From Candidatus Iainarchaeum sp. (lineage in GTDB: Archaea > Iainarchaeota > Iainarchaeia > Iainarchaeales > GCA-2688035), in assembly GCA_017608725.1 (NCBI GenBank), contig JAFCFG010000006.1, forward strand, positions 1 to 26,979: a stretch of DNA of 26,979 bases, read 5' to 3'. Below, piece after piece: positions 1-17,576 of the stretch; position 1 is the first letter of the stretch, and each line of letters opens with the position of its first letter. A program made the translations under genes and the position numbers. The notes beneath the pieces were generated by a model. That model saw nothing but the letters and a program-made list of their open reading frames with translations. It did no database searches and was not told the DNA's origin.

Positions 1-1
1 G

Positions 2-1183
2 TTGATTGACTTGGAGCTGCCACAAGATTATGGCAGCTTTAACGAATTCTACAGCAAGGCAATCAGCTTCAAATCATTCCTGTTAAAGGACGGTTACAGC
101 GAAGACCTGAGAAAGGACTTTGTTGAGTATTACAACAGCTTGACTGCTGCAAGTGAAATCAGAAACACGCTAACCACAACACGCTTTGGCGAAGAAGATG
201 CCTGGGCATTTGGCGAAAAGGGGCCATATGGGTCTGAATACAGCTTGCCGGAAGCCGGCCTGTACGATATCTTCATTGAGAAAAACTTTGGCGACTTTGC
301 AAGTGCAGAGTGGAATATTCAATTCACCCTGAATGAAAAGCTGCAGGAAATTGATGAAGAATTTGCAAAGAACGTCTTCTTTGAACTGCCATTTGACGGA
401 GAAGTGGGCATATTGAACGAAGGCGGCAAAACAAGGCAGGGCTATGGAATCAGCTTTTCAAATAGCCCAGAGCAAGCGGATATGTATCTCACCTACAAGA
501 CAGACCAAGAGAACGCAAACCTCTTTGATTCAACAGGAGGAGAGCAAAAACTTTCAGTTGAGTTTGGTGAAACCTTTGACAAAACAAATTCCGGGCTGAT
601 ATTGAAGGTTGACCTTGACAAAGGCGAATTTACCTACAACCCCTCGGTTGCAACACCGATTGAGATAGAACTTGGAACAAGCAGGGGAACAGAAATAGAG
701 GGAATGCTCTACGAGCTCAGTGGAACAGAGCAGGGAATTCTGAGAAGCCAGGATAGTATCTTTACCTTTAGAAGCGATGCTAAAAACTTCCTTGACCAGA
801 TATATCCACCTTCAGCTGGAATGAACCTCTGCAGAGAGGTAGGCACATTTGAACTCAACCTGCATGGATTCCAGCAACAGCTTGTAGGGCAGAAGACATT
901 CAAGGGAATTGCATTTGTTCCATTTGCAAGGCAATACACTGTAGTGTTTTACTGCAGCCAAGGGGCAGCAAAGGTTACTTCCCTTGACACAGATGAAACT
1001 ATAAACGTTGGCCAAGGCTACAGAACAGGGGAACTTGACTTGAAACTGCATGAGCCAGTTGAAGCAAAAAAGGTTACCCTGCCTTCATTCCTCAACAAAA
1101 TAGAGGAAGAGCAGGTTTGCATAAAAACAGGGCAGGACAGTATTGAACTGCTGTGGAACAAGGAAAAGCTGCTGTCAGGGTAA
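2..1183 (+). CDS. C-terminal part (5'-truncated by the window edge) of a giant surface-protein paralog (paralog 1)
   Basis: Open frame from the window edge to TAA at 1183. It shares ordered motifs with the C-termini of the two downstream giant ORFs: FKSFLLKDGYSEDLRKDF vs FNAYLIKDAYTNDFREDF / FKAYLIKDGYSGDFQRDF; FFELPFDG..RQGYGISF vs FYYLPFDG..RQGYGVNF / FYNLPFNG..RVGYGVNF; NPSVATP vs SPSYATP / SPNYATP; LWN vs FWN / WWN. Confidence 0.85.
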   Translation: MIDLELPQDYGSFNEFYSKAISFKSFLLKDGYSEDLRKDFVEYYNSLTAASEIRNTLTTTRFGEEDAWAFGEKGPYGSEYSLPEAGLYDIFIEKNFGDFASAEWNIQFTLNEKLQEIDEEFAKNVFFELPFDGEVGILNEGGKTRQGYGISFSNSPEQADMYLTYKTDQENANLFDSTGGEQKLSVEFGETFDKTNSGLILKVDLDKGEFTYNPSVATPIEIELGTSRGTEIEGMLYELSGTEQGILRSQDSIFTFRSDAKNFLDQIYPPSAGMNLCREVGTFELNLHGFQQQLVGQKTFKGIAFVPFARQYTVVFYCSQGAAKVTSLDTDETINVGQGYRTGELDLKLHEPVEAKKVTLPSFLNKIEEEQVCIKTGQDSIELLWNKEKLLSG

Positions 1184-1231: not shown

Positions 1232-4200
1232 ATGGCATTGGAAGGATTGAAGGAAGCATATTTTCGCTTAGAGGACAGATGGTATGCTGCAATTGACAGG
1301 ATTGATTCAAGAATACCGATTCACGGCTTGATTGACAGAATTGACAGAATTGTTCCTTCCTTTGCATTGTTTTTGGTTGTTCTCATTGCACTGGTTCTGT
1401 TCCTTGCCTTTATGCTGCCGGGAATGCTGGCAGCAGGAGCCAGATTCTCGTTCAGGGTTGTTGACAGTGAAGGTGCAACAGTGGAGGGTGCAACAGTCCA
1501 GGTGCTAATGGAAGGAAAAGAGATTGCTCTGCAACAGACAGACAAGTTGGGGGAAACAGCCCCAATAGTCCTGCCCTTGGATGCAGAGGTGGAAATAAAG
1601 GTATCAAAAAAAGACTTTATCTCGACTACTAAAACAATCACAGTAAGCGAATCAATTCTGCTTTATGAGGTCATGCTTGAAAGGGAAGAGGAGAAAAGAT
1701 ATACTATTTCTTTAAAGAGCAGCTTAGGGCAGCCGATTAGAGAGCCAGTGATACTCACTTTCAGTTGCAGGAATCCTGCAATTGCTTCATGGGAGGTGCC
1801 TGTTGTAAGCGGCAGTGCAACGGTAACAGAGCCAGCAAACTGCCAAGGCCTAATTGCAAGCGTAAGAGGCCAGGGCTTTGAGCCAATTGACTCAGTTGAT
1901 GTAACTCTAAGCAATCAAACCATTTACTTGCAGGAAATAGTTTCAGGAAATGCAACCATAACAGTTGAATTGCTGTTCAACAACCAAACAATAAGCGAAG
2001 AGGTAACAGTATATCTGTACAGGATTGACGACGCAACAGGGGCAGAGATTGGCCCGATTGAAAGCGCTGTCAGCGAAAATGGCATAGCCACTTTTAGCAG
2101 GCAGCCGGCCCAGTATTTTGTCAAAAGCAGCGGCTATGGGAACTTTGCAGCTGCAAGCAGTGCCTCTTTCAGTGTTTCAGCAGGAGAACAAAAAAACATT
2201 CAACTGCACTTGGAAAGAAATGTTGTTGGATACGTTAAATTGAAGATTTTGGACGAGATAACCGGTGCTGCTGTAGATGATGCAACTGTTTTCCTAAGGC
2301 TGGGCGGGGAAGAAATAGATTCAAAGAAGAGCAGTGCAGATGGAAACGGCTTTGTTGAATTTCCTGTTTCAGTGGACACTGCTTACAGCATCATAGTTGA
2401 CCATCCAGCATATTGTCTAAAAGTAGTGCACGATGTAAACCCAAGCACGAGCGTAAAGCATATTGAATTAAAGCCCTTTACAGTGGACTGCGGTGGAAAG
2501 TTGAAGGTCAAGGTTCTGGACCAGGATGGAAAGCTGGTGAAAGGGGCAACAGTTGGATTGTACACTGAAAGCGGATTCAGCGCGGGATTTTCAACCCAGG
2601 TAACAGATCTGAATGGAATCACTGTCTTTGAGGGGGCACCAAGCGGAAACTACAAGGCGTTTGCATTCAAGGGTTCAAGCAGCGGCTGGAGCGAGGTAGA
2701 ACACTTTGTTCAAAGGGCAGCGGAAAAAACAACGCTTACAGCTGTCTTGGATGTGAAAAACGGAACAGTCAGGGTAAAGGTCATTGACAAGGAGGGAGAA
2801 CCCATGCAATTTTCAGAGGTAGCATTTGTTGACGCAGCAACAAATGAGATAATTGGCGGCGGAGCCAAGCCGGTTCAAGACGTTAATGGCGTAGTTGAAT
2901 TGATTACAAGGGCAGACAAACAGGTTTACATTGTCGCAAGAAATCCCGGTTACACAAACTTCACTTCAATTGTAAAGCCGGTCCTATCCAATAGCACGCA
3001 GAATTTCACTGCTGTTCTGGAGAAAGAGATTATTCAGGGAGAGATTGAGATTGAGTTCAGGGGCGTTTACAAAAATGGGAAAAGCGTTAGTGCACTTGCA
3101 AGGGGTGAGAAATACACTGCATTGTTCAACCTTAAGATACCAGCAAACAAAAGCTATGATGAAATAGGCATGCATGTAAGAACAGGCAGCCACACTATGA
3201 TGGAACTCGACGAGCTTGTTTTGAGGGAAATTAATGCCCCCGGCAAGGCAAACATCCTGAAGGCAACAACCTACAGCCAGGGAGATGGCTATGCTTTTGA
3301 CAGCCGGAACCTAAGCAGCGATGAAGCAAAATGGGCCAACATAAAATGGAATGAATTCCAGACAGGCATAATAGAGGTAGCAGTTGAATTCCAAGTAAAG
3401 GAGGCCACAAGGCAAACAGAGATCCAAGCAGGGGAACTAGAGCTCTCTTACAGGGCATGGGCTGTTGAAAATGGCCTGTACAAGCGAAACCCATTGGACA
3501 ATGATTTGGGGGAGGCAGAGAGCGTGCCAGGAAAGGAAGCATTGTATGCCAAAACAAAGCAGGAGATATTCCAGATTGGCTTGGAAACTATTTGCGATGA
3601 GCTATTCTGCTTCAGCGCAAGCATTTTGGATATAGAAGATGGCCTGATTGAAAGCGCAACCGAAGGTTACAATGGAAAGGTGTTCAAGGAATATAAGCTG
3701 AGTTTTACCATTCTGAACAACAGCGAGTTTGAAACAAACAGCTATCCAAACGCTGAATTGAAGATACTGAATGTTGACGAAGGGCTGCTATTGCAGGACT
3801 ACAAGGCCTATGGAGCCCAGGGCCAGTTGGTTGAAGGCATTGTATCGGGCAGTGAAACGAAATGGATAGCTGTTGGAGACATGGAACCAAATAACACTGT
3901 TGCAGGCAATATAAACTTCACACCGCAGAAATCAACCGGCGGAGCAATTACAATACAGCTTAGGAGCATGCAAAGAATCCAATTTGAGAAGAGCATTATG
4001 ATAAATGCCACTGCAGAAAAGCAGTTGAACGTGGTTGCAGCACCAGAGCTGCTGCCAAGCGGTACACAAAACGACTTGACTGTTACTGTGAAGGACAAGA
4101 GAACAAACGCTGAGCTGGAGAACGCAATTGCAAAGTTAAAAGACAGGTTTGGTGCAATAGTTGCTGAAAAAACAACCAACAGAATGGGCATTGCTGTTTT

Positions 4201-7200
4201 GAGGCTGCCAGGCATGCAGCCTGGGGAAACAATGCGGTTGATTGTGGGAAAGCCAGGCTATGAAACCTTTGAGAGGGCAATCCAAGTAGATGAGAAGGTC
4301 ATTGCAATAAAGCCAACCAAAATTGGCGTTGCCCTGAACACTAAAACAGCATTGGAAGCGGAAGACCAATTCAGTGTTGAAAACATGACAGCGCTTGATT
4401 TGACTATAAAGGATGTGCGATTAACTGGCAGGGCATATGGCCTGATTGACACTGAAAAGATGAACAACTGGCTGTTTGGGTATATTGGCGAAGTGATTAA
4501 GCCAGGTGAGTTAAGGGAGATGCAGCTGAAGTCATTCCTCAGCGAGAAGGGAAGGAAGCTGCAAGAGAGCAGGAACGTGGAAGCAGAACTTGAAATGACT
4601 GTTGCAAGCAACGGAAGCGAATGGGTGCAAACAGCGCCGGTAAAAATAAACGTTGGCTTGGGCGGGGAAGTGGATGACCCAGCGTGCTTTACAGTAACAA
4701 GAAAAGAGTGGAATGGAAGCACTGAGGGAAAGCCAATAGAGATAGAGTTTGAATTGCAGAACAACTGCAGCAGCGGCGGCATTCCTGTCCAGCTAAAGGA
4801 TATTGCAGCAAAAATTGTGTGGCAAACCAACCAGGTTGGCGAGTATGCACTCAGAACCCAGTACACTGCAATTGGGATAAGGAGCGGCTACTTTAAAAAA
4901 TTCATTGAGGTTATTGAACCAGAGCAAAGCGTTTCAGTTGTGCTGCAGTTCAACGCAAATGGCGGAATAAGAGGCAAGGGAATGGCAGAGATAATATTCC
5001 AAGCAGAGAACAAAACTGACACAACAACCCAGCTGCTGACAGATGAGATTTCATCGGAAATAACGGTGGTGAACCTTGCTGACTGCATTGGATTCGATAA
5101 GGATGTCCTGATAATAAAGCCGGAGAAGACTGGTTCATTTAACATTGACACAGTAAACTGCGGTGCAAGGAACGAGATAAAGCTTGAATCGGACCTTGCC
5201 CTAAGCAAGAGAACCCTGACCTTGGGCGAAACAGACAGCAAAGAGGTAGAGGTTTTTGCCGAGAAAAACATGCCTGGGCAGTATCCAGTAAGGGTATATG
5301 CAAAGGGCAGTGATGACGTGCAATTCAAATTGATTAAAACAATCAGGGCAAGAATCCTGAGCGACAAATGCCTTGAATTAACGAGGTATGAATTCGATGT
5401 ATTTGACAATCCAGAGAATCCATATGACGGCTATGATACAGCTGAATTGATCAACAACTGCTATGACAAGCCAGTGCAGATAACAGTACACTACGATGAG
5501 CATGACTGGGGCGACGCAATGAAAACAGGCGCCCTCTACGGCCTTGTAATGGGGTTGATGGGGGCAATGGGCCAATCAGCAGAAAAAAATGCAGCAGCAG
5601 AAATAGCTGCAGCAAGCAGTGTAACCAAGGGAATTACTCCCAATGGGACAATAGTTGCATTGAAGGGCGGCGTATGGACTGATGCAAAAGGCAGCACTGT
5701 AGCGGGAAATGTTTACCCCTACAGAACAATTGAGTCTGGTGGAGCATACTACAGCGGCTATGACCACGGAGATGGAGACCTATACGATGCCCTGGGAAAC
5801 AAAGTGCTTGACAAGAAAACAACTGGTGCATGGTTCTGGAAAGGCACAAAGTATGTGCCAACTGGTAATATAGCAGGGCCTGAAGCAGCCCAGGGCGGAA
5901 TGCCTGCTTCAACAACGGCAACAGGCAGTGTTGTACTTGGTTCGCCTGCCGGTGCATCCCTCCTGGGCGGAATATTTGGAGGGGGAGGCCCCGGAGGCAG
6001 CCTAGCAGGCAACCTTGTTATGGGCTTGGGCAGCTCGATTTTGGGCAAGCCAAGCTTTTTGGGCTGGGGCCTGCAGGGCTTTTTGGCCGGCACACTTATT
6101 GCATACGAGCAGCAGGATGAGGGGGAGCTTAGCTTTACAACAATTGAGAAAGACGTTGTTTACAGGGATTCTGAATTGCTGTTGCCTGGATTAACGCTTG
6201 ATGAAGACAAGATAGTGGAAACCCCTTCAGAGGACATTATTCTAAGGAAACCGGATGAGGAGGAGGTAAGCACCGAACCCAAAGAAGAGGACAGGAGGCT
6301 GAGCAAGGAAACAAGAAAGCTGTGGTTTTGGAATACGGCTGGTGTTGTGCAGCCAGACCCGGAAACCCCGCTGTACAGAATCCTCAGGGTTGACAATGAG
6401 AGAAGAATCTACAAAACAGAGTATGAAACAGATGAAAAAGGGAACCCCGGCATAGAGATAAAGGAAAGGAAGGACCACAAGGAAAGGTTTAGGCTGCAGT
6501 TCAATGCATTTGACCCGCTGCTCATTGACAGGATTTCAGGGCCAATACCAAACTGCAAGCTTGGCAATGTGGTTGGCGTTACAGGGCCGAATGCTGTTCC
6601 AAGGGTTTCGTTTAACTGGGATTGGCAGAGCATTGGAGAGAGCAGCTGTGTGGAGGGAAACGATGACTACATTTACTGCGATGCCACGCAATTCAGCATC
6701 GTTGTTTTGAAGAAACTGCACAAGCTGCAGGAATTCATTGATATGTACAAGCCGTTTGACTGCCCAAGCCCGGTAACGGCAGCTGCAGTCAAGGAACAGC
6801 CTATGGTTGGAACTGCATATGACGTTGCAATTACAAAGATTCAGGCAAACAAAATTGCGACAAGCGATGCAAACATTGTTGTAACGGTTGAAAGCAACAA
6901 CGGCAAGCAGATGGCTTCCAGCCTGCAAATTTTTCTGAGAGATGACACAGGCACTGTTGTAAAAGGCTGTGACAAGCAATTCAGCCTATTGAGCAGGAAT
7001 GTTGTGAACTGCGAATTCACCGGCCTGGCAGAGGGATTGTACGATGTGCAGGCAACAATTGAGCCTGATTTGTGCCCTGATTGTGAGAATAGCGATTCAG
7101 CAAACGATTCAATAAGTGCACAGCTGTTTGTTGGAGCTGGCGGCGTAGTTGAGTGCGAGCCATTCAACACAAAGAGGCTGCCGTTGTTTATTGAGGCAAC

Positions 7201-8491
7201 AGAGGCAGCAGGGAATGCAGCGTGGAGCAACCAGGAGAGGGAAGAGATACTGGAAACGATTAAATTCAATGCATATTTGATTAAGGACGCTTATACAAAT
7301 GATTTCAGGGAAGACTTTGATTTATTCTGCAAGCAGATGAGCTTCTTTGACTGCCCGGATTACTACACGGATTCAAGCAATGGATTGCACAAGCTGTTTG
7401 CAGACAGGGAGAGATTCAGATTTGATTACAGCATGGCCCCACATGCCCCGGTGGACGCTGGAAAGTACGCTGTTGAAATAAACGTTGAGTTTGGCAACCA
7501 GAACTGGGATTTGTTTGTGGGGGAGGAACCAGATGCAACTGTTTCAATTGAAATGGCGCAATTGAGTGCACCGGAGCCAGAGAGCCCGTTTTACTACTTG
7601 CCATTTGACGGCTTGGTTGGAATAGACAGCGAAAACGGCAGGCAGGGTTATGGAGTAAACTTCAGGCAGACAAGCGAGGAAACAATTAAAATCAACAACA
7701 GCCTGCTTCAGCCAGTCATAAGCACCAATGTTGCAAACAGCACGCCTGTCCTAAACGGATGGATTAACGCAGGCTTTAACGACAGCTTCAGGAGGCTGAA
7801 CCAGGACAAGAGGGGGATCCTGCTTGATGTAGTGGCAGGCACTGATTCAACAAATATTGTTTTAAGCCCAAGCTATGCAACCCCTGTTATGATGAAAGTG
7901 GATTACGAGAAAGGTGAGCACGCTTATGGCTTTTATTCAGTTGAAATTGATGACAGCCCGCAGGTTGCCTTTGAAAGAATGATTCCGTGGAGTGGCATAG
8001 GTCCAAATTGCAGGGATTTTGATGACAGACCGGTTACAGAGGCATGGCAGGATACCTGGGACAAGCATGGGGGCATAAGCGGAAACTTGATTTGCGCTGT
8101 TGGTACAGAGGTAACAGATTATGGAATTGAATGGTGCAATCCAAAGAGAAGCGGCAGCGTTTTCCTTGAAAGCGTTGTCTTTACTCCGCAGAATACCGTG
8201 AGCTTGATGAAGAGAACGGCTTACGGCGATGGCATGACTTTGATTACTGCTGACAACAGAGGCAGCCAAGTAGCATTGAACGGCATTCCTGGCATGCGCT
8301 ACAACAGCTTTGGAACAAGCGAAATTGATTCCATTGAGGATGTGTTTGCATTGGTTAGGGAAAGCAAGGTCTGCTTGGTTGGAGCAGATAACAGGAAAAG
8401 CAACCAGTTCTTCTGGAATCCAAAGATTGTATTGCAAGAACTCAGCCAGGAGAGGACAGAGGCTGAAGAGAGCTGTATCAGGCCAGCGTAG
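1232..8491 (+). CDS. Giant (2419 aa) N-terminally membrane-anchored surface protein with carboxypeptidase-regulatory-like (prealbumin-fold) repeats (paralog 2)
   Basis: ATG at 1232 is preceded by an AGGTG RBS-like motif (1217-1221); the ORF track's TTG at 1211 is a less likely start. A hydrophobic segment (FALFLVVLIALVLFLAFMLPG) is followed by repeated units of the type V.V.D..G..V.GA.V...TD..G (e.g. FRVVDSEGATVEGATVQV, VKVLDQDGKLVKGATVGLY...TDLNG, VTVKDKRTNAELENAIAKL), which match the CarboxypepD_reg-like pattern. The protein contains many paired Cys. Confidence 0.85.
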   Translation: MALEGLKEAYFRLEDRWYAAIDRIDSRIPIHGLIDRIDRIVPSFALFLVVLIALVLFLAFMLPGMLAAGARFSFRVVDSEGATVEGATVQVLMEGKEIALQQTDKLGETAPIVLPLDAEVEIKVSKKDFISTTKTITVSESILLYEVMLEREEEKRYTISLKSSLGQPIREPVILTFSCRNPAIASWEVPVVSGSATVTEPANCQGLIASVRGQGFEPIDSVDVTLSNQTIYLQEIVSGNATITVELLFNNQTISEEVTVYLYRIDDATGAEIGPIESAVSENGIATFSRQPAQYFVKSSGYGNFAAASSASFSVSAGEQKNIQLHLERNVVGYVKLKILDEITGAAVDDATVFLRLGGEEIDSKKSSADGNGFVEFPVSVDTAYSIIVDHPAYCLKVVHDVNPSTSVKHIELKPFTVDCGGKLKVKVLDQDGKLVKGATVGLYTESGFSAGFSTQVTDLNGITVFEGAPSGNYKAFAFKGSSSGWSEVEHFVQRAAEKTTLTAVLDVKNGTVRVKVIDKEGEPMQFSEVAFVDAATNEIIGGGAKPVQDVNGVVELITRADKQVYIVARNPGYTNFTSIVKPVLSNSTQNFTAVLEKEIIQGEIEIEFRGVYKNGKSVSALARGEKYTALFNLKIPANKSYDEIGMHVRTGSHTMMELDELVLREINAPGKANILKATTYSQGDGYAFDSRNLSSDEAKWANIKWNEFQTGIIEVAVEFQVKEATRQTEIQAGELELSYRAWAVENGLYKRNPLDNDLGEAESVPGKEALYAKTKQEIFQIGLETICDELFCFSASILDIEDGLIESATEGYNGKVFKEYKLSFTILNNSEFETNSYPNAELKILNVDEGLLLQDYKAYGAQGQLVEGIVSGSETKWIAVGDMEPNNTVAGNINFTPQKSTGGAITIQLRSMQRIQFEKSIMINATAEKQLNVVAAPELLPSGTQNDLTVTVKDKRTNAELENAIAKLKDRFGAIVAEKTTNRMGIAVLRLPGMQPGETMRLIVGKPGYETFERAIQVDEKVIAIKPTKIGVALNTKTALEAEDQFSVENMTALDLTIKDVRLTGRAYGLIDTEKMNNWLFGYIGEVIKPGELREMQLKSFLSEKGRKLQESRNVEAELEMTVASNGSEWVQTAPVKINVGLGGEVDDPACFTVTRKEWNGSTEGKPIEIEFELQNNCSSGGIPVQLKDIAAKIVWQTNQVGEYALRTQYTAIGIRSGYFKKFIEVIEPEQSVSVVLQFNANGGIRGKGMAEIIFQAENKTDTTTQLLTDEISSEITVVNLADCIGFDKDVLIIKPEKTGSFNIDTVNCGARNEIKLESDLALSKRTLTLGETDSKEVEVFAEKNMPGQYPVRVYAKGSDDVQFKLIKTIRARILSDKCLELTRYEFDVFDNPENPYDGYDTAELINNCYDKPVQITVHYDEHDWGDAMKTGALYGLVMGLMGAMGQSAEKNAAAEIAAASSVTKGITPNGTIVALKGGVWTDAKGSTVAGNVYPYRTIESGGAYYSGYDHGDGDLYDALGNKVLDKKTTGAWFWKGTKYVPTGNIAGPEAAQGGMPASTTATGSVVLGSPAGASLLGGIFGGGGPGGSLAGNLVMGLGSSILGKPSFLGWGLQGFLAGTLIAYEQQDEGELSFTTIEKDVVYRDSELLLPGLTLDEDKIVETPSEDIILRKPDEEEVSTEPKEEDRRLSKETRKLWFWNTAGVVQPDPETPLYRILRVDNERRIYKTEYETDEKGNPGIEIKERKDHKERFRLQFNAFDPLLIDRISGPIPNCKLGNVVGVTGPNAVPRVSFNWDWQSIGESSCVEGNDDYIYCDATQFSIVVLKKLHKLQEFIDMYKPFDCPSPVTAAAVKEQPMVGTAYDVAITKIQANKIATSDANIVVTVESNNGKQMASSLQIFLRDDTGTVVKGCDKQFSLLSRNVVNCEFTGLAEGLYDVQATIEPDLCPDCENSDSANDSISAQLFVGAGGVVECEPFNTKRLPLFIEATEAAGNAAWSNQEREEILETIKFNAYLIKDAYTNDFREDFDLFCKQMSFFDCPDYYTDSSNGLHKLFADRERFRFDYSMAPHAPVDAGKYAVEINVEFGNQNWDLFVGEEPDATVSIEMAQLSAPEPESPFYYLPFDGLVGIDSENGRQGYGVNFRQTSEETIKINNSLLQPVISTNVANSTPVLNGWINAGFNDSFRRLNQDKRGILLDVVAGTDSTNIVLSPSYATPVMMKVDYEKGEHAYGFYSVEIDDSPQVAFERMIPWSGIGPNCRDFDDRPVTEAWQDTWDKHGGISGNLICAVGTEVTDYGIEWCNPKRSGSVFLESVVFTPQNTVSLMKRTAYGDGMTLITADNRGSQVALNGIPGMRYNSFGTSEIDSIEDVFALVRESKVCLVGADNRKSNQFFWNPKIVLQELSQERTEAEESCIRPA

Positions 8492-8689: not shown

Positions 8690-11600
8690 ATGGGCTTGAA
8701 AGATGCGTATGTTGCATTAGAGGATAAATGGTATGGTTTCTTAGACAGGGTTGATGCCCACATCCCAATATACAAGATAGTTGACCCAATCGACAGGGTT
8801 GTCCCATCCCTCCTTCTCTTTATTGCAGTAATTGTTGCATTGCTTGCTTTCTTTCTTATAATGCCAGGGCTTCCCATGACAGGGCAGGTTTGTTGCAGAG
8901 GTAATAAACAGCAAGGAAACAGGTGCTGACGGCAGCATTAAATTCAATGCACCCTTTAATTCAAGCATTGAGATAAGGATCGAAGAAGTAACAGTTGATG
9001 GCGTAGAATACGAGGCGAAGCATATAAAGTTTCAGGTTGCTGAGGAAGCTGATTTTAGCCAAAAAATTATTTTGAAAGAGAAAGGGCTACCATTCATTAA
9101 GAGAACCATCCTGTTCCAGAACAGCGCTGGCGAAAGAATAACAGGTGAACTCATCAAAATAAGGCTTAGCTGCCAGAATAACCTGGCCCAGCTGCCCCAA
9201 ACAATAGTGGCTGACAACGACAAAGACGGGAGCATTGCAGTAAATATGCCCAGTGACTGCGGAATACTTTACGCAGACATCATAGCGCCAAGTAAATTCA
9301 AGCAGATGAGCTACACAATCTCAAACAGTACGCAGGCAATAAAGCTAGAAAGCCTAGATGTTGCAAAAGGCTCATTGAGGGTAAAGATAAAGGACGGCCA
9401 GGGAAACCTGGTTACCGGAACCAACTTCAGCGTCAAACTCATGGACAGCGCTGGCTCACAGGTCAGTGAAAAATACAGCCTGAACTACGGTGAAGCCTTT
9501 TTCACTGATGTAACAGCTGGAAGCTACAGCGTAAGCGTTGAAGACTTGGACGGAGACTATGGGCTTGCATCCAAGAGCAATGTTCCTGTTCCTGTTGATG
9601 ATACAGCAATAGTTGAAGTGGTTGTAAGCAAAACAGTTAAGGCAACCATTAACGTAAGCGTTGTTGACAAGGCAACCCAGCAGGCAATTCCAAACGCAAC
9701 TGTAAAACTGTTTGATTCAAGCGGCAGAACACTTAGTGAAAAGAACACTGGAGACCAGGCAGAGGTTGTTGTCTTCTATCTGACAGACAACAAGGATTAC
9801 ACTATTATTGCATCGCATGATGATTACTTGTATGAAACAGCCAGCTTGCAGCAGGTAAGCAACCTGGATGTTAAATTTGAATTGGACAGAATAACAGCCC
9901 AAAACAGTGGAAGGGTAAAGGTAAGGGTATTGGACGAGGATGGCCTGGTTGTCCACAACGCAAAGGTCAAGTTGCGTTTTCTGGAAACGGAAATGCTTGC
10001 TCCCTACCCGGCAAAAACCACTGACAGAAACGGCATAGCAAGCTTTGTTGGGGTAAAGGAAGGAAGCTATTACGCTTACGTGGAGAAGTATCCTGCCTTT
10101 GGAGACAACAAGCCTGAGGGCAAGGAAATAGACATCAGGGAGGTAACATACTTTACAGTTCACCTCTACATTGGCAACAGCATGGTTCAGGTAAGGGCAG
10201 AGGACGAAGACGGAATGCCGGTGCACGAGGCAGAGGCAGAGTTCTTTGCAGAGAATGGGGAAAGCCTGGGAAAGATTCCTTTGCCAGAGGGCATTGGCCA
10301 GTATGAACTGAAAGCGGACAAAAGGGCATATGTTGTTGTAAGGCACGATAACTTCATGTCAGTGCAGACAATGCCACAGCAGCTTTGGCCAAACCAGACA
10401 ATCAGCTTTACTGCAAAAATGGAGCCAAGGCTTGTTCTGGGAGACCCAAAAATAGAGTTTGAGGGGATATTCAACAAATCAGGAAAACAAGTGCAGCAGC
10501 TGGATGCAGGAAACAGGTATTTTGCAAGGTTTAAGTTGAGCGTGCCAGAGGCAGGCAATTTCAGCCAGGGGGGCTTCCATTTTAGAATAGGGGATGAAAG
10601 ATTGCTTGTAAATGAGCCCCTGGTGATAAAGGACGTTATTGCAGGGGACATAAAGGCTCCGTTGAAGGGAACGAGCTTTACCCCGCCAATTGGATATGAG
10701 AAAGACAGCCAAAATTTAACAGAGGGAGACGCGAAATGGGTTAACATATGGTGGTCAGACCTTCAACCAATGAATTATTATTTTGGGTTTGAGATAAGGG
10801 TAAAGAGCCAGATAACCCCCTACACAAAGCTTGCAATGCACTACAGGGCATGGGCAAAGGACGAGGCAGAAGACTATGTCAGGGTTCCATATGATTCCAT
10901 CCTTGGAACTGCTGAAACAACAGCAGAAAAGCAGGCGCTTTATGCAAAAACCCTTGACCTGCAGTTCCTGGAGGGCTCACCCAGTGACTGCCAGGAGGAC
11001 TTTTGCTACAGTGGAGAAAGCATACTTGACGAGGACAGGGGGCTTTACATTTATGAGCCCTATCAGATGAGGGCAGGGGCCAAGCACAAGCTGACATTTG
11101 ACATATTGAACAACAGTGAAAGGCAGTACGACAGCAGTGAATTATACATAACAGTGGATGGTCTAACCATAACAGGATATGAAATAGTAAACGCTTCAGG
11201 GCGAGAAACAGGTGCAGAGAACATTGCAGGGAAAAAGGTTGAAGCCATTGATTTGGGTGAATTCACCAAGGGGAAGAGTGTCAGCAGCAGGGTTTCTTTC
11301 AGCGCCTCTTCAGCTGGGAATGCGGCAATTGAAGTAAAGGTAATTGCAGATGGCAGGGTTGTTTTCCAGAGGAACATTAGTGCACAGGTGGTTAGCGAAA
11401 GGGAAATGCAGGTTTCGGTTGACCCAGAAACAATACCGGCTTATATAGCAAACGATTTGCAGGTTTACATTAGGGAAAATGCCGATGGGCAGCACTTTGA
11501 CGTTGACAACGCACTTGTAAGGCTTACAATAACGCATCCAGACAAAACAACGGAATTTTACACTTCTATTACAAACGGTTTTGGAAAAACAAGCTTTAAC

Positions 11601-14600
11601 CTGCCTGCTTTGCAGCCAAACGCAAAAATAGTGGTTGAGGCAGAGAAGCCAGAGTATTATGCAGAGCCGCTTGTTTTGTTTGTTGACAGCAACGTTCTTA
11701 GGTTCTCTCCTGGCAAAGTGAATTCAAATTTGGATACCAGGGGAGTGAAAGAGCAGGTGTTTACTGCTGAGGCCAGGAATGTTATTGGAATTGACCTCAA
11801 AATCAAGAACATTGCTTTAAGCGGGGCATTCAAGGGGTTGCTTGACAGGGGAACAATGGCAAACTTTGCAAAACAGTACATTGGAATGACAATTGAGGGC
11901 AGCCAAAGCGCTGTAAGGGAGTTCTTCAAAACAAAGCTGAGTGCAAACGCAAGGGAACTGCTTTTAAGGAACGAAAAACTGTTGGGCGAATACGTTGTTA
12001 CTGCAACAAACAGCGACGAAAGCATTACCTGGGACATAATTGTGCCATTGCAGGTTAGGGTGGCTGTTGGCGATTTGCCTGACAATGCACCCTGCCTGAT
12101 AATTTCAAGGGAGAAGTGGGATGCCTCCACTCTTGAGAACAGTGCAACTATTGAATTTGAGGTACAGAACAACTGCATGGCAGCCGGCAGCTTTGTTGAA
12201 TTGGACAATTTGCAGGCAATGCTTGAATGGCAGGGAGACGCAATTGGAACAGTTGAGCTAACATTGATTGAAGCAGAAACCGGCAGCAGCAACAGCGAGA
12301 TTCTAAGGCCTGGAATGTGGGTGCAGTTGTTCAAAACAATTCAGCCTGATTCAATCTACTACGCAATGCTTACCTTTACACCAAAGCAGGGCCATTTGGG
12401 TGAGACAGCGAAATTCACTGTGGACATAGATGGCCAGACAACCACAAGCGGGGGCAGTGCCTTTGTTGGCTCAAAGCCAAGCAAAATCACCTCAAACATT
12501 AAAGTCGTGAATTTGCAGCAGTGCATCACATACGAGGGAGCAGAGAACGTTGTTGAATTAAGAGCTGGGCAAAACGATGGGGCATTTACTGTTGATTCAA
12601 GTGATTGCGGTAACACTGGGGTAACAATTGAATTATGCAGGCAAAATCCAAATTGCAGCGGGGGAGCAGAGGGAGGAATTGAAGTAACCCCCCTAAGCTT
12701 TACCCTAAGGCCAGACAACCCAACAAAGGAAATACTTGTAAGCAGAAGAAGCATTCCGGGAATGTATGGAATCAACGTTGAGGCAAAAGTAGCAGGCACC
12801 TCTTTCAGAGAGGTAAAGAATATTGATGTATTGGTTGAACCAGAATCAAGCAATGAATTTGCTCTTGACAAATATGAACTGAGTTTGAAGGGGATTGGGG
12901 CAAAGGACGAGGTAAAGCTGACAAACAAGGCATTGAGTGAAACTGTTTCAGTTGATGCTTCTGCATGCGACTGGGGCACAGCAGAGGAAGAAGGAATGTT
13001 TGACTTGGCTGGAGCTGGGATGGGTGCTGCTATTGCAGCATTGTTGGGCGCAAAAACAGCGATAGAGCAGGCAAGCGAAGCAACAAACGCAGTTAACCTT
13101 GCAAGAACCACGGATTTAAGCAATGCGCTTGAACAGGCAAGAGCAGCAAACCAGGCAACAGAAGCTGCAAAGGCTGCAAGCGAGGCAGCGAAAACTGCTT
13201 CGGAAACAGCCCAAAATGAGGCAGTGAAGTCAGCAAATAGAGCTGTTCAGCAGGCAGCAGCAAAAGCAGGCAGCATTCCAGCAACATGTGATGCAGGCAC
13301 TAACACATACTTGGGCAATGCAAGTAGCAATACAGGTGCAGCAGACACAACTGCAAGCAGCTCATTTATTTCAAGTATCGGAAGCATGATCGGGTCAATT
13401 TTAAGTGGTGTTGGAAAAATTGGCAGCGGCGTATTTAACACTATTACAGGAAGGGAAACAGCATCAGCCAATGAGGCCTGGCAGGTAAGCACTTCCCCAA
13501 TGAACTCAACAAAGGACCTTGACAACAGCATTGCTGATACAGATAGCGCGATTTCGCATGTAACTGATAACAGGGCAGAACTGGTAAAAAGCCGGGCTGA
13601 TGCTGAAACAATGCTGGCAGAACTGAACAATGCAAAAATACAGCTTGCCGGGGCAAGTGCATCAATAGATTCCAGCATTGGCATATGCACTGCTGATTGC
13701 GCACTAGAACCAGCAGGGCCCTGCTGCCCGCACCTTGGCACTGCCCAGGCTGCCAAAGGGGAAATAAATGCTGCCATTGCAGCAGTTGACAACGCTATTG
13801 CAAAAACAGAGGCTGCAAAGGCAGAAATTGCGGAAGCAATTAGTTCAGCAGATAGCTCCCTTGCTGAGCTTCAAAGTACGCAAACACTGCTTCAAAACGC
13901 AAAAACCTCAATGGGCAAGCTTGGCAAAACAATGGCAGCAACAGAGGGGGCAAGCAGCTTTAACAAAGGCAAGTTCTTTGGCATTTTGGGTACGTATGCT
14001 GCATTGGGTGCAATTGCCGGTGGCCTAATGGGCGGCGTATTTGGAGATGACCCCTGTGACCAAAGGGTTACTGCAAACCTAATGGACTATGTGATTAACC
14101 TGAAGGATGATAATTTGCCACTGGCTGTTGACAAAGAGGGAGTTACTGCGGAGTGGAAAACAGATGGTGCACAGGTCTTTGGCACTTATGATAGCCAGGA
14201 AGTTGGAATTGAATTTAATAATGTTTCGGTTGAACCGGGAAAGCCGACCTATGCAACAGTAACCATTAGTGCAACAAGGCATTACCATGCAAGCCCAACA
14301 ACTATTAGCAGGGGCGACTCAGGATTTGGGCCATTTAATGTTCCTGACCAAAGAAGCGAAACCTACACCCAGAAGTTCCACTTGAAGCTTAACACAAAGG
14401 ATATCTCGCTTGAAATACCCCCCCTGCCAGAGGAAGAAGGCTGCCTGATGGGAACCCTTGTAGGGAGAACAGGCAGGGAAGCCCTGCCAAAAATAAAGCT
14501 TAATTGGAGCTGGGATGACCAAACAGGGATTGCAGCAGATGAGTGCGATTATTTGAACGATGAAGCAGTTTACTGTGATGCAACCCAGTTTGGCATAATG

Positions 14601-16139
14601 GTGAACAAAAGGCTGAGGGCATTGGAGCAATTCCTTTCAGCGAATACTCCCCTGCCCTGCCCGCCAAATCCCGCAATAGAATCCCTGGAAGAGATTGGGG
14701 AGGAATACAATGCAGCCCTGGACGAGCTGGGCATGGTGCCGTTTGTTCCGATGGACGTGGACAGTTGTTGGATGCCCCGTTCTACTGTTCTGTTTGACGG
14801 AAAGCCTGCTTTGCTTTACTACGTTGAAGCAAATTTGGATAGCATTACTTGGACTGAGGAAGTGCCTGATTTGGATTCCCTGAGAAAGCTGCTGCATTTC
14901 AAGGCCTATTTGATTAAGGACGGCTACAGTGGGGATTTCCAGCGTGACTTTGTTGAATTCTATACGACAACCAGCTTTTATGACCCTCCGGAATGGTTTG
15001 TTGGTTCAGGGGAGAGATACGCTGACCTGTTCAGTGACCAGGATATTATGAGGTTTAGAACAAGGTATGCTGGGGATGAAAGGCTGTCTTCAGCTGGCTT
15101 GTATGATGTGGTTCTGGCAGTCAATTACTTCAATGAGGACTGGCAGTTGTTCAGGCTGGGTTTGCCTGATGCAAAGATTGTTGTTGACCTGCATCTTATT
15201 GAGAACCCTTACCCTGACTCAATATTCTACAACCTGCCGTTCAACGGAAACATTGGAAAGGAAAGTAGCAACGGCAGGGTTGGCTACGGTGTGAATTTTG
15301 AGAACAGGAAGGACAACATCCTGATTACCGAGTACCCGGGCGAATCAATTGACACTGCTGCAATTAGCGGCAGCACTACCATAAGCGTTATTGAAACAGA
15401 TGTTGAAACTGACATAAAGAAAATCAATGCAAGCGCTTCCAACAGGGGATTTTTGATGAATGTGGCAGAGGGCTCAGGCAGTGTAAAGGAAATAACCTTC
15501 AGCCCAAATTATGCCACTCCTGTTTTGCTGCAGCTCAGCCATGGCAGGGACGAAGAGCCCTTCTCTGCGTTCTATCAGCTGCAGGAAACCCTGACGCCTG
15601 TAGAGGTTGGAACAAACCTTGGGTTTTGGACTGGCTCAGGAGAATGCTTGGACTTTACTGGCATTCCAGTATTTGAGGCATTTGACTTCAAGGCAGACAG
15701 GGAAGCAACTAGCAGCGACAGGCTAAGCAACTGGGAGTTTGCCTATGCAGTTGACTGGGACAAGGCAGACTACAGCGGCAATGTTTACCTTAAAACAGTG
15801 TTCTTTACCCCAACAAACGGCAGCTATAATTTGAAGGCACTGCAGCCAACTGAACTAAAGTTTATTACACCAAGCAGTGGCAGCCAGCAGGTAGTTGAAT
15901 TGGAGGGAATTAGGGGCATGCAGCACAACAGCAGGCAGGGGATGGACAATGCAAAGAGCCTGCAGGACCTCTTTGATTTGGTGGAAAGCAGGCATGTCTG
16001 CGTTACAAATTCAGGGGCAAGGACAGCGTTTTGGTGGAATCCGAAAACATTGTACGAAACAGCCGGCCCAAACACAAGCATTAGGGACTTTGAAGAAGGC
16101 CTTGTTGCTGGCCAAAGCTGCATTGGATACAGCAGTTGA
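8690..16139 (+). CDS. Giant (~2480 aa) surface protein (paralog 3), interrupted by a frameshift near 8880-8895 (possible pseudogene or assembly error)
   Basis: ORF 8690-8929 (MGLKDAYVALEDKWYGFLDRVDAHIPIYKIVDPIDRVVPSLLLFIAVIVALLAFFLIMPG) aligns residue for residue with the N-terminus of paralog 2. A second frame is open from 8880 (after TGA at 8877-8879) to TGA at 16139 and reads ...VAEVINSKETGADGSIKFNAP...LKEKGLPF, running into the tracked 9072 ORF. Domain order and motifs (DWG, YCDATQF, YLIKDGY) match paralog 2. Confidence 0.8.
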
Positions 16140-16235: not shown

Positions 16236-16450
16236 AAACCAGCCTTATTTTGGGGAAAAATCAATTAACAGGGGGCCAGTTTCTTAAAGCGCCCTGTAGA
16301 AATGATTCATAAATGCAAAATTTGAATCCCTTAAATCGGCTTTAAACGGCAAAATAGCAGCAAGGCATTTATAAACAAAAATAGAATTTCTACACAGGAT
16401 TTCTTAAAGCAAATTAATTTAAATCAGAACAATTATTCTAGTTATTGGTT

Positions 16451-16843
16451 ATGGTTCAAGATATTTTGCCAATGCTCTTTGCTTTGTTTTCCTTTTCAGA
16501 GTTTTTTGGAGACATGACCTTTGTTTTGAAGATATTTGTTTTAATGACAATAATCAGCTTTATTGTAATGCATTTGGGAACAGGGCCCCTGGCAATCATA
16601 TTGATTTTGGGGATAAGCTACTTTGTTTTGATTGGTGCTTTTTGGTTTTTTGGCTCAGTCTATGTTCTAATGATGCTGCTGATGTTCGGAGTTTCAGGCA
16701 TTTTAATTGATTTCTTTTTTGTTGGAGGGATGGGAACGCCGCAAGAGCAGACACCAATAAGCCATGGTATTGACTTGAGGGCAAAGAGGGGGGCAATGAT
16801 GGCGCATGGCAGAGGCAGCCCCAGAAGAAGAATGATGAGATGA
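16451..16843 (+). CDS. Small multi-pass membrane protein (130 aa) with a basic C-terminal tail
   Basis: ATG at 16451 lies two codons after the tracked TTG. About 95 aa are almost entirely hydrophobic and are followed by an Arg-rich tail (RAKRG...RGSPRRRMMR). It contains the LG-x3-LAI-x7-Y motif shared with the next two ORFs. Confidence 0.75.
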   Translation: MVQDILPMLFALFSFSEFFGDMTFVLKIFVLMTIISFIVMHLGTGPLAIILILGISYFVLIGAFWFFGSVYVLMMLLMFGVSGILIDFFFVGGMGTPQEQTPISHGIDLRAKRGAMMAHGRGSPRRRMMR

Positions 16844-16849
16844 AAAAAG

Positions 16850-17188
16850 ATGGCTTTTTCAATGAACCAGCAGGGGAACATGCTTTTGTTTATTTTCATT
16901 GCCTTCCTTATCTTAGCTGTGCTGCCCCCCATTGTAATGATGCTGTTTCCAGCGGCAGACATCATAATCAGGGTAATACTTGTTTTGCTGATTTTTTCAA
17001 CTGTAAGGGGCTATCTTGGAGGGGGCATTCTCTCGCTTATAATTAGCGGCGTGCTAATTTACTTCCTTGTAATCAAATGGGCTTACTTCACTGCATCCAT
17101 GTATGTGTTCTTTTACTTCATAATGACCTTTGCAATTACCTCAGTGGTGATTTGGGGAATCGGAATGAATATAGGGAAAAGGGGGTAG
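16850..17188 (+). CDS. Small multi-pass membrane protein (112 aa)
   Basis: Hydrophobic throughout, with 3-4 predicted helices. It starts 6 nt after the previous stop codon (operon-like) and carries LGGGILSLIISGVLIY. Confidence 0.8.
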   Translation: MAFSMNQQGNMLLFIFIAFLILAVLPPIVMMLFPAADIIIRVILVLLIFSTVRGYLGGGILSLIISGVLIYFLVIKWAYFTASMYVFFYFIMTFAITSVVIWGIGMNIGKRG

Positions 17189-17243
17189 AGTAACTGCTAA
17201 CCAGACTTTATAAATGGGCCAATAAATGCTGTATTAGGGGGCA

Positions 17244-17260
17244 GAGAAGGTTTTATAATA
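17244..17260 (+). promoter_or_regulatory. Candidate archaeal BRE/TATA promoter
   Basis: Purine-rich GAGAAGG immediately followed by TTTTATAATA, about 45 nt upstream of ATG 17301. An AAGGTG RBS-like motif (17285-17290) lies between them. Confidence 0.4.
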
Positions 17261-17300
17261 AAGAAACGGCATTAATTTCTATGTAAGGTGCATCAAAAAA

Positions 17301-17564
17301 ATGTTTTTTGCATTGCTGCAATTGAACGAGGCAACCCTGTACACTGATCTGTGGACAGTTCTCTCACTGTTCTACCTTGTGTGGATCTTTGGCTGGGCAA
17401 AGAATGCACTGGGTTCAGCAAAGCTTGCAATACTGTTTGCGGTAATAGTTGTTTACCTGACTTTCTTTTTGCACCCTGAACTGGTCTGGTTGCCAGTGCT
17501 GATAATAATTTTTGCTGCCCTTGGAAAAGGCGTGTTTGAAAAAGCAAACGTGTTCAAGGACTGA
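17301..17564 (+). CDS. Small multi-pass membrane protein (87 aa)
   Basis: AAGGTG upstream of the ATG, three hydrophobic segments, and the motif LGSAKLAILFAVIVVY. Confidence 0.8.
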   Translation: MFFALLQLNEATLYTDLWTVLSLFYLVWIFGWAKNALGSAKLAILFAVIVVYLTFFLHPELVWLPVLIIIFAALGKGVFEKANVFKD

Positions 17565-17576
17565 GCTGGAAAGGGA

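What the first reader, a model, noticed from the sequence alone, without database searches (positions are those of the whole stretch)
5504..6110. Paralog 2 has a different ~200-aa insert at the same site, also bounded by Gly-rich hydrophobic helices (variable cassette)
Seen: the insert starts at the same DWG landmark (HDWGDAMKTGALYGLVMGLMGAMG) and ends in ASLLGGIFGGGGPGGSLAGNLVMGLGSSILG...GWGLQGFLAGTLIAY. Its core is aromatic- and Gly-rich (GGVW, YYSGYDHGDGDLYD, GAWFWKG) and unrelated to the coiled-coil core of paralog 3. Inference: a conserved scaffold with a swappable payload between conserved hydrophobic borders, similar in logic to polymorphic toxins or variable host-recognition tips.
Basis: partly seen in the sequence, partly recalled or inferred. 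Interest (0 to 1): 0.7.

Follow-up and report, generated by a model that had tools for sequence, protein, structure and literature searches.

The report
Hypervariable loop in archaeal giant protein
In the middle of a giant surface protein of a tiny DPANN archaeon, two conserved glycine-striped helices bracket the only hypervariable stretch of the protein; it changes quickly in place rather than by cassette swapping, and may determine what the cell surface recognises.

Summary
Paralog 2 (window 1232-8491, about 2,420 aa) has a stretch at aa 1432-1633 (nt 5504-6110) with three parts:
- a conserved 24-residue glycine-stripe helix (H1);
- a roughly 125-aa variable core;
- a conserved helix-turn-helix (H2a/H2b).

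Among 17 orthologs, identity falls from 0.64-0.76 to 0.08-0.27 in the core. This is the only such trough in the protein. The core is unrelated to the paralog 3 insert (z -0.8).

Across 64 family members the inserts are 30-916 aa long, and only 11 of 2,016 pairs are alignable. The upstream domain plus H1 occurs in 159 of 201 genomes sampled from the phylum.

The "swappable payload / polymorphic toxin" reading is only partly supported:
- Trees built from the two flanks agree.
- The nearest relatives keep diverged homologous inserts that differ by hairpin-sized indels.
- An 18-nt tandem duplication lies inside the insert.
- I found no silent copy, standalone cassette, toxin domain or reverse transcriptase.

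Best reading: an outward-facing display loop that evolves quickly in place. AlphaFold predicts a small beta mini-domain followed by a disordered tether. Function and membrane topology are inferred, not shown.

This scan has already noted the same hairpin-plus-insert design in at least seven other genomes and in paralog 3 of this window.

The parts
1232..8491 (+). Paralog 2 gene. The mechanical ORF starts at TTG 1211; the likely start is ATG 1232, which is M8 of P0001.
   Evidence: M8 is nearly invariant in the family alignment.
1361..1417 (+). N-terminal membrane anchor, aa 51-69.
   Evidence: Best 19-aa Kyte-Doolittle window is 3.27. The family median for this anchor is 3.13.
5078..5497 (+). 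Conserved Ig-like (PapD/MSP-like) beta sandwich just before the site, aa 1290-1429.
   Evidence: AlphaFold2 pLDDT above 90. Foldseek matches to PapD, FimC and MSP domains.
5507..5578 (+). Helix H1, aa 1433-1456. It carries a conserved small-residue stripe: A1436, G1440, G1444 and G1451.
   Evidence: AlphaFold2 helix with pLDDT about 85. The stripe positions are 75-100% Gly/Ala/Ser across 59 sequences and lie on one helical face.
5576..5944 (+). Hypervariable core of the insert, aa 1456-1578.
   Evidence: 29% identity to the closest ortholog against 71-73% in its flanks; 4-19% to the other orthologs. This is the conservation trough.
5577..5619 (+). 18-nt tandem duplication, 2.3 copies at 84% match. 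It encodes the Ala-rich start of the insert.
5624..5809 (+). Predicted beta-hairpin mini-domain, aa 1472-1533. It holds the GVW, YYSGYD and LYDALGN motifs.
   Evidence: AlphaFold2 places six strands here with pLDDT 73-83. It is partly shared with P0008 and P0004.
5822..6001 (+). Predicted disordered Pro/Ala/Thr/Gly-rich tether and Gly-rich lead-in, aa 1538-1597.
   Evidence: AlphaFold2 pLDDT below 50.
5945..5953 (+). Conserved P-x-G motif before H2 (P-T-G in most relatives), aa 1579-1581.
   Evidence: P and G are about 80% conserved in the orthogroup. G1581 is 80% conserved across 59 sequences.
6002..6040 (+). Helix H2a, aa 1598-1610.
   Evidence: AlphaFold2 helix.
6056..6109 (+). Helix H2b, aa 1616-1633. 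It carries the stripe G1620, G1623, G1627, plus T1628 and the near-invariant Y1632.
   Evidence: AlphaFold2 helix with pLDDT 73-87. Column conservation.
6842..7222 (+). Second paralog-specific segment, aa 1878-2004. It is a CARDB-like Ig domain that is present in paralog 2 and absent from paralog 3.
   Evidence: Gap in the BLASTP alignment. Beta sandwich in the C-terminal model, with CARDB matches.
12996..14222 (+). Equivalent unaligned segment of paralog 3, P0002 aa 1309-1717, used for comparison.
2..1183 (+). C-terminal 393 aa of paralog 1. The rest of the gene lies on contig C86, which overlaps the start of the window by exactly 44 nt.

Best explanation
Residues 1456-1578 of paralog 2 are the hypervariable core of an insertion site that recurs across a protein family. 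The family consists of giant surface proteins, anchored at the N-terminus, in Diapherotrites-type DPANN archaea.

The site lies between helix H1 and a helix-turn-helix (H2a/H2b). Each helix carries a conserved stripe of small residues on one face. I infer that these stripes pack against each other and close the base of a loop.

In paralog 2 the loop has three parts: a short Ala-rich stretch that has been micro-duplicated, a beta-hairpin mini-domain of about 62 residues, and a disordered Pro/Ala/Thr/Gly tether of about 60 residues.

The loop diversifies in place, through substitutions, hairpin-sized indels and small or module-sized duplications. Over longer times whole domains are occasionally gained. 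It does not diversify by exchange of ready-made cassettes.

I infer that the loop faces outward and acts as a fast-evolving display or recognition element, either for contact with a partner cell or for escaping something that targets this protein.

Shown: the anatomy, the conservation pattern, the family-wide diversity of inserts, and the residual homology with near relatives. Inferred: hairpin closure, outward location, and any role in recognition.
For: - Conservation trough. There is one sharp trough in 2,426 aa.
- Insert diversity. In 64 relatives with both borders, inserts are 30-916 aa long (median 180). Only 11 of 2,016 pairs are similar at E <= 1e-3, giving 54 similarity groups.
- Search behaviour. 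Most of the 361 representative hits match in two stretches that skip the insert.
- Change in place. Flank trees are congruent. The insert is homologous to those of P0008 and P0004, with hairpin-sized indels. P0011 and P0013 have flanks 95% and 88% identical, but their inserts are only 57% identical over the alignable part and are 249 and 325 aa long. An 18-nt tandem duplication lies inside the insert.
- No cassette source. There is no second DNA copy in the genome, no standalone or other-scaffold copy, and no reverse transcriptase.
- Helices act as a unit. H2 was never found without H1: 55 proteins have both, 0 have H2 only, and 21 have neither. The small-residue stripes are conserved on one face of each helix.
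- Probably not ordinary membrane spans. Median Kyte-Doolittle score is 1.17-1.20, against 3.13 for the N-terminal anchors.
- Outward location suggested by relatives. One relative's insert holds an fn3 domain above the Pfam cut-off. Seven have cores with 8-11% Cys.
- Structure. AlphaFold2 gives the helices pLDDT 73-87, the beta mini-domain 73-83, and the tether below 50.
- Distribution. The three-gene array is syntenic in a same-genus genome. The upstream domain plus H1 is present in 159 of 201 sampled genomes, and in 55 of 58 high-quality ones.
Against: - Packing of H1 against H2 was not demonstrated, because the model coordinates could not be inspected.
- The outward location rests on the content of inserts in relatives. 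The paralog 2 insert itself has no Cys and no recognisable domain.
- N-glycosylation sequon density does not separate the insert from the flanks.
- Some sister pairs with 74-78% identical flanks have inserts with no detectable similarity: P0011/P0014, P0012/P0016 and P0028/P0030. Replacement is therefore not excluded for the family as a whole.
- High variability could reflect low constraint rather than selection. No dN/dS test was possible, because the closest relative is only 68% identical.
- The alignment supporting the mini-domain prediction is shallow in that region.
- There is no evidence on expression, localisation or binding.
Confidence: 0.55

Rival explanations
1. Swappable cassette. 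Ready-made payloads are moved into the site by recombination at the conserved helix-coding borders, as in polymorphic toxins or silent-cassette antigenic variation.
For: - Paralogs 2 and 3, and 99.5% of family pairs, have unalignable inserts.
- Whole domains appear in some inserts: fn3, Cys-rich repeats and coiled coils.
- Sister pairs with 74-78% identical flanks can have unrelated inserts of very different length, for example 569 aa against 226 aa.
Against: - Flank trees are congruent.
- The nearest relatives of paralog 2 keep a homologous insert.
- There is no donor copy in the 82%-complete genome.
- No standalone or foreign-scaffold copy turned up in the large protein collection.
- The borders carry no inverted repeats and no significant direct repeats.
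- The paralogs are too diverged (28% amino-acid identity) for homologous exchange with each other.
- The insert has no toxin or other domain match.
Confidence: 0.15
2. Second membrane anchor with a cytoplasmic spacer. H1 and H2 cross the cell's own membrane as a two-span hairpin, and the insert is an unconstrained cytoplasmic linker whose sequence drifts neutrally.
For: - The helices are hydrophobic and glycine-zipper-like.
- Much of the insert has low complexity or is predicted to be disordered.
- Sequons are not enriched in the insert.
Against: - The helices are far less hydrophobic than the true anchors (1.2 against 3.1) and are short, with hydrophobic runs of 13-18 residues.
- H2 is predicted as two short helices, which gives an odd number of segments.
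- Relatives' inserts carry fn3 and 8-11% Cys repeat modules, which are typical of exposed proteins.
- H2b keeps conserved polar positions (T1628, Y1632, Q1635), which points to specific packing.
Confidence: 0.15
3. Membrane-active device. The glycine-rich helices engage or insert into a partner cell's membrane, like a fusion peptide or pore-forming hairpin, and the insert acts as the specificity or trigger element.
For: - The Gly/Ala-rich hydrophobic composition and the conserved P-T-G lead-in resemble fusion-peptide-like segments (the resemblance is from general knowledge).
- These archaea have about 1 Mb genomes, and a host-dependent life has been proposed for a member of the phylum (PMC5905446).
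- The family is nearly universal in the sampled genomes.
Against: - The paralog 2 insert has no heptad-repeat rod.
- There is no C-terminal membrane span.
- No match to any known fusion or pore family was found.
- Two paralogs in the same genome lack the hairpin entirely.
Confidence: 0.08
4. Bait-like or processing region. The exposed variable stretch is a protease-sensitive site, as in alpha-2-macroglobulins, or a maturation cleavage site at the conserved P-T-G.
For: - Family members give weak Pfam matches to macroglobulin MG domains.
- A disordered stretch lies next to a conserved short motif.
Against: - There is no thioester motif.
- No A2M or thioester-domain match was found; the MG matches fall below the Pfam cut-offs and fit generic Ig-like folds.
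Confidence: 0.04

Closest known systems
Clustered large membrane-anchored proteins of Diapherotrites (Candidatus Forterrea multitransposorum; Probst and Banfield 2018, PMC5905446)
   Same: Both are proteins of more than 1,800 aa with a membrane anchor. Both are clustered in a genome of about 1 Mb from the same phylum. The paper proposes a role in cell-cell interaction.
   Different: The paper gives one sentence on them and no anatomy. It does not describe the internal helix pair or the hypervariable site. I did not test direct homology to the Forterrea proteins.
Transmembrane glycine zippers, (G/A/S)xxxGxxxG (Kim et al. 2005 PNAS; cited from memory)
   Same: H1 carries A1436-G1440-G1444-G1448 and H2b carries G1620-G1623-G1627. 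Both are conserved stripes on one helical face.
   Different: The helices here are weakly hydrophobic and sit mid-chain in a 2,400-aa protein that is otherwise extracellular in character. Membrane insertion is not shown. They give no match to the Pfam Gly-zipper families.
Polymorphic toxin systems (Zhang et al. 2012, PMC3482391)
   Same: Both have a conserved giant scaffold carrying a highly diverse segment.
   Different: In those systems the variable part is a C-terminal toxin domain, with an immunity gene downstream and standalone cassettes. Here it is internal, has no toxin domain and no cassettes, and its near relatives are homologous.
Hypervariable regions of bacterial surface adhesins and antigens, such as the streptococcal M protein HVR and Opa HV loops (from general knowledge)
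   Same: Both are a short exposed stretch that evolves much faster than its conserved framework, with indels and small duplications.
   Different: Those are bacterial, the proteins are small, and immune selection is documented. Here the selective agent is unknown, and the loop is framed by a conserved glycine-stripe helix pair.
SPEARE giant proteins of Nanohaloarchaeota (Hamm et al. 2019 PNAS; cited from memory)
   Same: Both are giant surface proteins of DPANN archaea thought to mediate host contact.
   Different: I found no sequence relation. SPEARE proteins carry protease and nuclease domains, and none was found here.

Membership tests
Giant membrane-anchored surface proteins of Diapherotrites/Iainarchaeota (unnamed family) | More than 1,800 aa, with an N-terminal hydrophobic anchor | tested here: met
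   2,419-2,426 aa. The anchor at aa 51-69 has a Kyte-Doolittle score of 3.27.
Giant membrane-anchored surface proteins of Diapherotrites/Iainarchaeota (unnamed family) | Clustered paralogs in the genome | tested here: met
   Three lie in tandem in the window and two more elsewhere in the genome. The same array occurs in a same-genus genome.
Giant membrane-anchored surface proteins of Diapherotrites/Iainarchaeota (unnamed family) | Full-length homology to proteins that their sources label Candidatus Diapherotrites | tested here: met
   P0004 scores E 3.8e-260 and is 68% identical over the whole length.
Giant membrane-anchored surface proteins of Diapherotrites/Iainarchaeota (unnamed family) | Homology to the five Forterrea proteins themselves | not tested
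   Their sequences were not retrieved.
Transmembrane glycine zipper | (G/A/S)xxxGxxxG pattern, conserved on one helix face | tested here: met
   Regex matches at aa 1436 and 1440. Column conservation and wheel angles.
Transmembrane glycine zipper | The helix spans a membrane | tested here: inconclusive
   Median Kyte-Doolittle score is 1.17-1.20 against 3.13 for the true anchors. The predicted helices are 13-24 residues long.
Pfam Gly-zipper families (PF05433, PF13488, PF13436, PF13441) | Match to a family HMM | tested here: not met
   No such match at E <= 10 for the H1 or H2 segments of two family members.
Polymorphic toxin systems | Variable C-terminal toxin domain | tested here: not met
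   The variable part is internal, at aa 1456-1578 of 2,426. It has no Pfam match at E <= 1. The C-terminus is conserved.
Polymorphic toxin systems | Standalone or orphan cassettes of the variable part | tested here: not met
   No second DNA copy in the genome. No protein of 69-223 aa or 224-2,000 aa carries it.
Diversity-generating retroelement target | Reverse transcriptase plus a template repeat | tested here: not met
   No RVT_1 match in the 82%-complete genome. No repeat of the insert DNA.
Alpha-2-macroglobulin bait region | Thioester motif and thioester domain downstream of the bait | tested here: not met
   No C[GL]EQ motif and no A2M or thioester-domain match.
Class I viral-type fusion protein | Heptad-repeat rod after the Gly-rich segment, and a C-terminal membrane span | tested here: not met
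   The paralog 2 insert is predicted as beta plus disorder. The only strong hydrophobic segment is the N-terminal one.

The most novel reading that the evidence does not exclude
The conserved glycine-stripe helix pair is a device that engages a partner cell's membrane, and the hypervariable loop it frames determines which partner surface is recognised. If so, each genome's set of three to five paralogs would encode a repertoire of host specificities for these small-genome, possibly host-dependent archaea. That would give a molecular handle on how DPANN cells choose and attach to hosts.
Probability: 0.12. Interest if true: 0.85.

Novelty: new variant of a known kind. Interest (0 to 1): 0.55.

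Why it matters
How DPANN archaea recognise and hold on to other cells is largely unknown. These proteins take up about 3% of a 1.1 Mb genome, and the family is found in most sampled genomes of the phylum, so it is presumably important.

A single, sharply bounded hypervariable site in an otherwise conserved 2,400-residue protein is a concrete candidate for the specificity-determining or antigen-like part. It can be tested by population sequencing, surface proteomics, binding assays with the recombinant mini-domain, and imaging.

The work also corrects an attractive but unsupported analogy with toxin-style cassette swapping. At this locus the loop changes in place.

Tried and rejected
- Two-chain complex prediction (beta sandwich plus H1 against H2 plus the next domain). 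It returned no verdict, so it is evidence neither for nor against hairpin closure.
- Public reads. Four hydrothermal-vent runs hold fragments at 99% identity or more, but only as short low-depth contigs. No contig spans the insert and there are no joints, so nothing can be said about alleles. The uncovered bins around nt 5614-5764 carry no meaning.
- N-glycosylation sequon density as a test of topology. Observed/expected is 1.0-1.2 in every region, so it does not discriminate.
- ESM Atlas look-up of the C-terminal region. No usable hit.
- Foldseek of the hairpin model against PDB, and of the C-terminal model against PDB and AlphaFold DB clusters. Only generic Ig-like, PapD or CARDB domains matched, plus one uncharacterised family member. 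No fold name emerged for the scaffold.
- Pfam at a permissive threshold on the helices, the middle region and the C-terminal region. Nothing was above chance.
- Antisense ORFs at 5634-5957 and 5758-6093 and an Rfam scan of 5000-6600. Nothing was found, so the feature is protein-coding on the + strand.
- dN/dS. Not attempted, because the closest relative is only 68% identical and synonymous sites would be saturated.
- A short motif, aromatic-[DN]-x2-3-G. It occurs at twice the shuffled expectation in inserts (z 4.8) but is barely denser than in the flanks. This is too weak to support a shared module.
Full report
**What is there.**
The window (contig C148 of a 1.14 Mb, 82%-complete assembly) opens with three large + strand genes:
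- the last 393 codons of paralog 1 (nt 2-1183);
- paralog 2 (nt 1211/1232-8491, 2,426 codons from the TTG, stored as P0001);
- paralog 3 (nt 9072-16139, stored as P0002).

Paralog 2 has a strong N-terminal hydrophobic anchor at aa 51-69. It also gives CarboxypepD_reg and Ig-like Pfam matches.

**Check of the observation.**
BLASTP aligns paralogs 2 and 3 over aa 163-1440, 1713-1877 and 2005-2409 at 28-32% identity. Nothing between aa 1441 and 1712 aligns above chance. The two insert cores score z = -0.8 against shuffles.

I collected 31 full-length homologs and aligned them. In the 17 closest, identity to paralog 2 is 0.64-0.76 at aa 1351-1440, 0.08-0.27 at aa 1441-1590, and about 0.5 from aa 1591. 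This is the only trough in the protein.

At residue level, the left border falls after about aa 1452. The right side begins with a conserved P-x-G at aa 1579-1581, followed by the H2 region.

The closest ortholog, from a same-genus genome, is 71-73% identical in the flanks and 29% in the core. Other orthologs are 58-68% identical in the flanks and 4-19% in the core. The predicted "sharp drop between DWG and the second Gly-rich helix" is therefore real.

**Family-wide picture.**
An exhaustive search with aa 1300-1900 found 361 cluster representatives at E <= 1e-3. Most match in two stretches that skip the insert.

Using border HMMs, 64 proteins have both borders. Their inserts are 30-916 aa long (median 180). 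Only 11 of 2,016 insert pairs are similar at E <= 1e-3, giving 54 similarity groups.

Insert content varies widely. It includes Gly/Thr/Ala/Ser/Pro-rich low complexity, coiled coil, repeats with 8-11% Cys, and in one case an fn3 domain above the Pfam cut-off.

The beta sandwich plus H1 module is found in 159 of 201 genomes sampled across the phylum, and in 55 of 58 high-quality ones. There are usually several matches per genome.

Homologs are labelled Candidatus Diapherotrites by their sources. [quoted passage not shown] A second literature search found nothing on this site.

**Anatomy of the paralog 2 site.**
AlphaFold2 was run on a 52-sequence alignment of aa 1290-1720 (mean pLDDT 76). It predicts:
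- an Ig-like sandwich at aa 1290-1429, pLDDT above 90, which Foldseek matches to PapD/MSP-like domains;
- helix H1 at aa 1433-1456, pLDDT about 85;
- a six-strand beta mini-domain at aa 1472-1533, pLDDT 73-83;
- a disordered stretch at aa 1538-1597, pLDDT below 50;
- helices H2a (aa 1598-1610) and H2b (aa 1616-1633), pLDDT 73-87;
- further beta structure after that.

Across 59 sequences, H1 positions 1436, 1440, 1444 and 1451 are 75-100% Gly/Ala/Ser and lie on one helical face. In H2b, positions 1620, 1623 and 1627 are 68-83% small residues. T1628, Y1632, Q1635 and D1648 are 78-98% conserved.

These helices are much less hydrophobic than the real anchors. The median best 19-aa Kyte-Doolittle window is 1.17-1.20, against 3.13.

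H2 was never detected without H1: 55 proteins have both, none has H2 alone, and 21 have neither. A further 23 have H1 with an H2 too diverged for my HMM, and paralog 3 is one of these.

**Swapping or change in place.**
Trees from the 5' flank (aa 700-1452) and the 3' flank (aa 1600-2420) agree. Both place paralog 2 with P0004, next to P0005 and P0008.

The paralog 2 insert is significantly similar to that of P0008 (z 13-15) and P0004 (z 5-7). The differences are deletions or insertions of single hairpin-sized pieces: P0008 lacks the YDHGDGDLYDALGNKV piece and P0004 lacks the VWTDAKGSTVAGNVYPY piece. Against all other inserts the median z is 0.4.

The nearest pair in the data, P0011 and P0013, has flanks 95% and 88% identical. 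Their inserts are 249 and 325 aa long and are 57% identical over the alignable part; P0013 appears, by eye, to carry a second copy of one module.

Inside the paralog 2 insert there is an 18-nt tandem duplication (2.3 copies) at nt 5577-5619. There are no inverted repeats and no notable direct repeats at the borders.

Other tests for a cassette source were negative:
- The insert DNA has no second copy in the genome.
- No protein of 69-2,000 aa in the large collection carries it.
- The genome has no reverse transcriptase match.
- The insert has no Pfam match.

On the other side, several sister pairs with 74-78% identical flanks have inserts with no detectable similarity, and one such pair differs by more than 340 aa. 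Replacement or domain gain therefore does happen somewhere in the family, or divergence quickly erases the signal.

**The third paralog.**
The reverse complement of contig C86 overlaps the first 44 nt of the window exactly. The joined frame gives a 2,609-aa paralog 1, which is 60% identical to the first gene of the same-genus array.

Paralog 1 has no glycine-stripe helices. At about the equivalent region it has two low-complexity stretches instead: one Gly/Tyr-rich at about aa 1287-1353 and one Gln/Pro/Gly/Tyr-rich at about aa 1523-1605.

Another paralog, on contig C160, also lacks the hairpin. The "third insert type" therefore exists but is not framed by the conserved borders. The hairpin defines a subfamily.

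**Context.**
The array of paralog 1, paralog 2, paralog 3 and five small ORFs is syntenic in a same-genus genome. In each hairpin-bearing paralog, the only 40-aa windows below 30% identity to the ortholog lie inside its insert.

The C-terminal 793 aa fold confidently (pLDDT 86). They match only CARDB-like Ig domains and one uncharacterised family member, so the scaffold has no named fold relatives.

**Interpretation.**
The descriptive part is solid: one sharply bounded hypervariable loop between conserved small-residue-striped helices, recurring across the family.

I commit to the following reading. The loop is outward-facing and used for display or recognition. Its base is closed by helix packing. 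It diversifies in place.

The outward location is inferred from fn3 and Cys-rich modules in the inserts of relatives and from the weak hydrophobicity of the helices. Helix packing is inferred from the conserved stripes, the co-occurrence of H1 and H2, and the model confidence.

The rivals are cassette exchange, a cytoplasmic spacer between two membrane spans, a membrane-active device, and a bait or processing site. Each is scored in its own section of this report.

**Earlier notes of this scan.**
The same hairpin-plus-variable-insert design was noted in at least seven other genomes and in paralog 3 of this window. I used those notes as leads only. My tests agree that the design is phylum-wide and that no pore or harpoon function is shown.

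Noticed in passing
window 1-44 and genome contig C86: The reverse complement of contig C86 (6,693 nt, one open frame end to end) overlaps the start of the window by exactly 44 nt. Joining them gives a 2,609-aa paralog 1. It lacks the glycine-stripe hairpin and carries Gly/Tyr-rich and Gln/Pro/Gly/Tyr-rich low-complexity stretches instead.
   Followed up: yes
window 6842-7222: A second paralog-specific segment. This CARDB-like Ig domain with conserved cysteines (aa 1878-2004) is present in paralog 2 and its orthologs, and is replaced by about 40 aa in paralog 3.
   Followed up: partly
window 5577-5619: An 18-nt tandem duplication (2.3 copies, 84% match) encodes the Ala-rich start of the insert. 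It is a trace of local slippage in the variable region.
   Followed up: yes
window 5945-5953 and relatives: A short conserved P-[TS]-G motif sits 15-25 residues before H2, inside a stretch that is otherwise disordered and variable. G is 80% conserved across 59 sequences. In distant members it reads like [LI]P-x-TG. Its function is unknown, and no sortase-type C-terminal context is present.
   Followed up: partly
relatives P0006-P0017, just after H1: A sister clade keeps a conserved S-F-[WF]-T-G motif immediately after H1. The paralog 2 clade has lost it.
   Followed up: no
window 12996-14222 (paralog 3) and relatives: In the paralog-3-type subfamily a cysteine often sits just before H1 (7 of 34 proteins). 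In the paralog-2 type it almost never does (1 of 64). Paralog 3 also has a cysteine just after its second helix, so a disulfide clamp may be specific to that subfamily.
   Followed up: partly
L011 25013-27023 and window 16445-18372: The run of five small ORFs downstream of the three giants is also present in the same-genus genome, so it belongs to a conserved gene neighbourhood.
   Followed up: no
window 8690-8884: The N-terminal leader and anchor of paralog 3 match paralog 2 (49% identity) but lie in a different frame from the body of the gene. This suggests a frameshift or an assembly error.
   Followed up: no
window around 5487 (run X1): One contig from a hydrothermal-vent run matches up to nt 5487 and then continues with a different sequence that still encodes the conserved DEHDWGD border. 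It is probably from a related organism in the same sample.
   Followed up: no
window 21717-24146: A family B DNA polymerase (Pfam E 1.4e-60) lies a few kilobases downstream of the giant-gene array, followed by a protein with a PKD domain.
   Followed up: no
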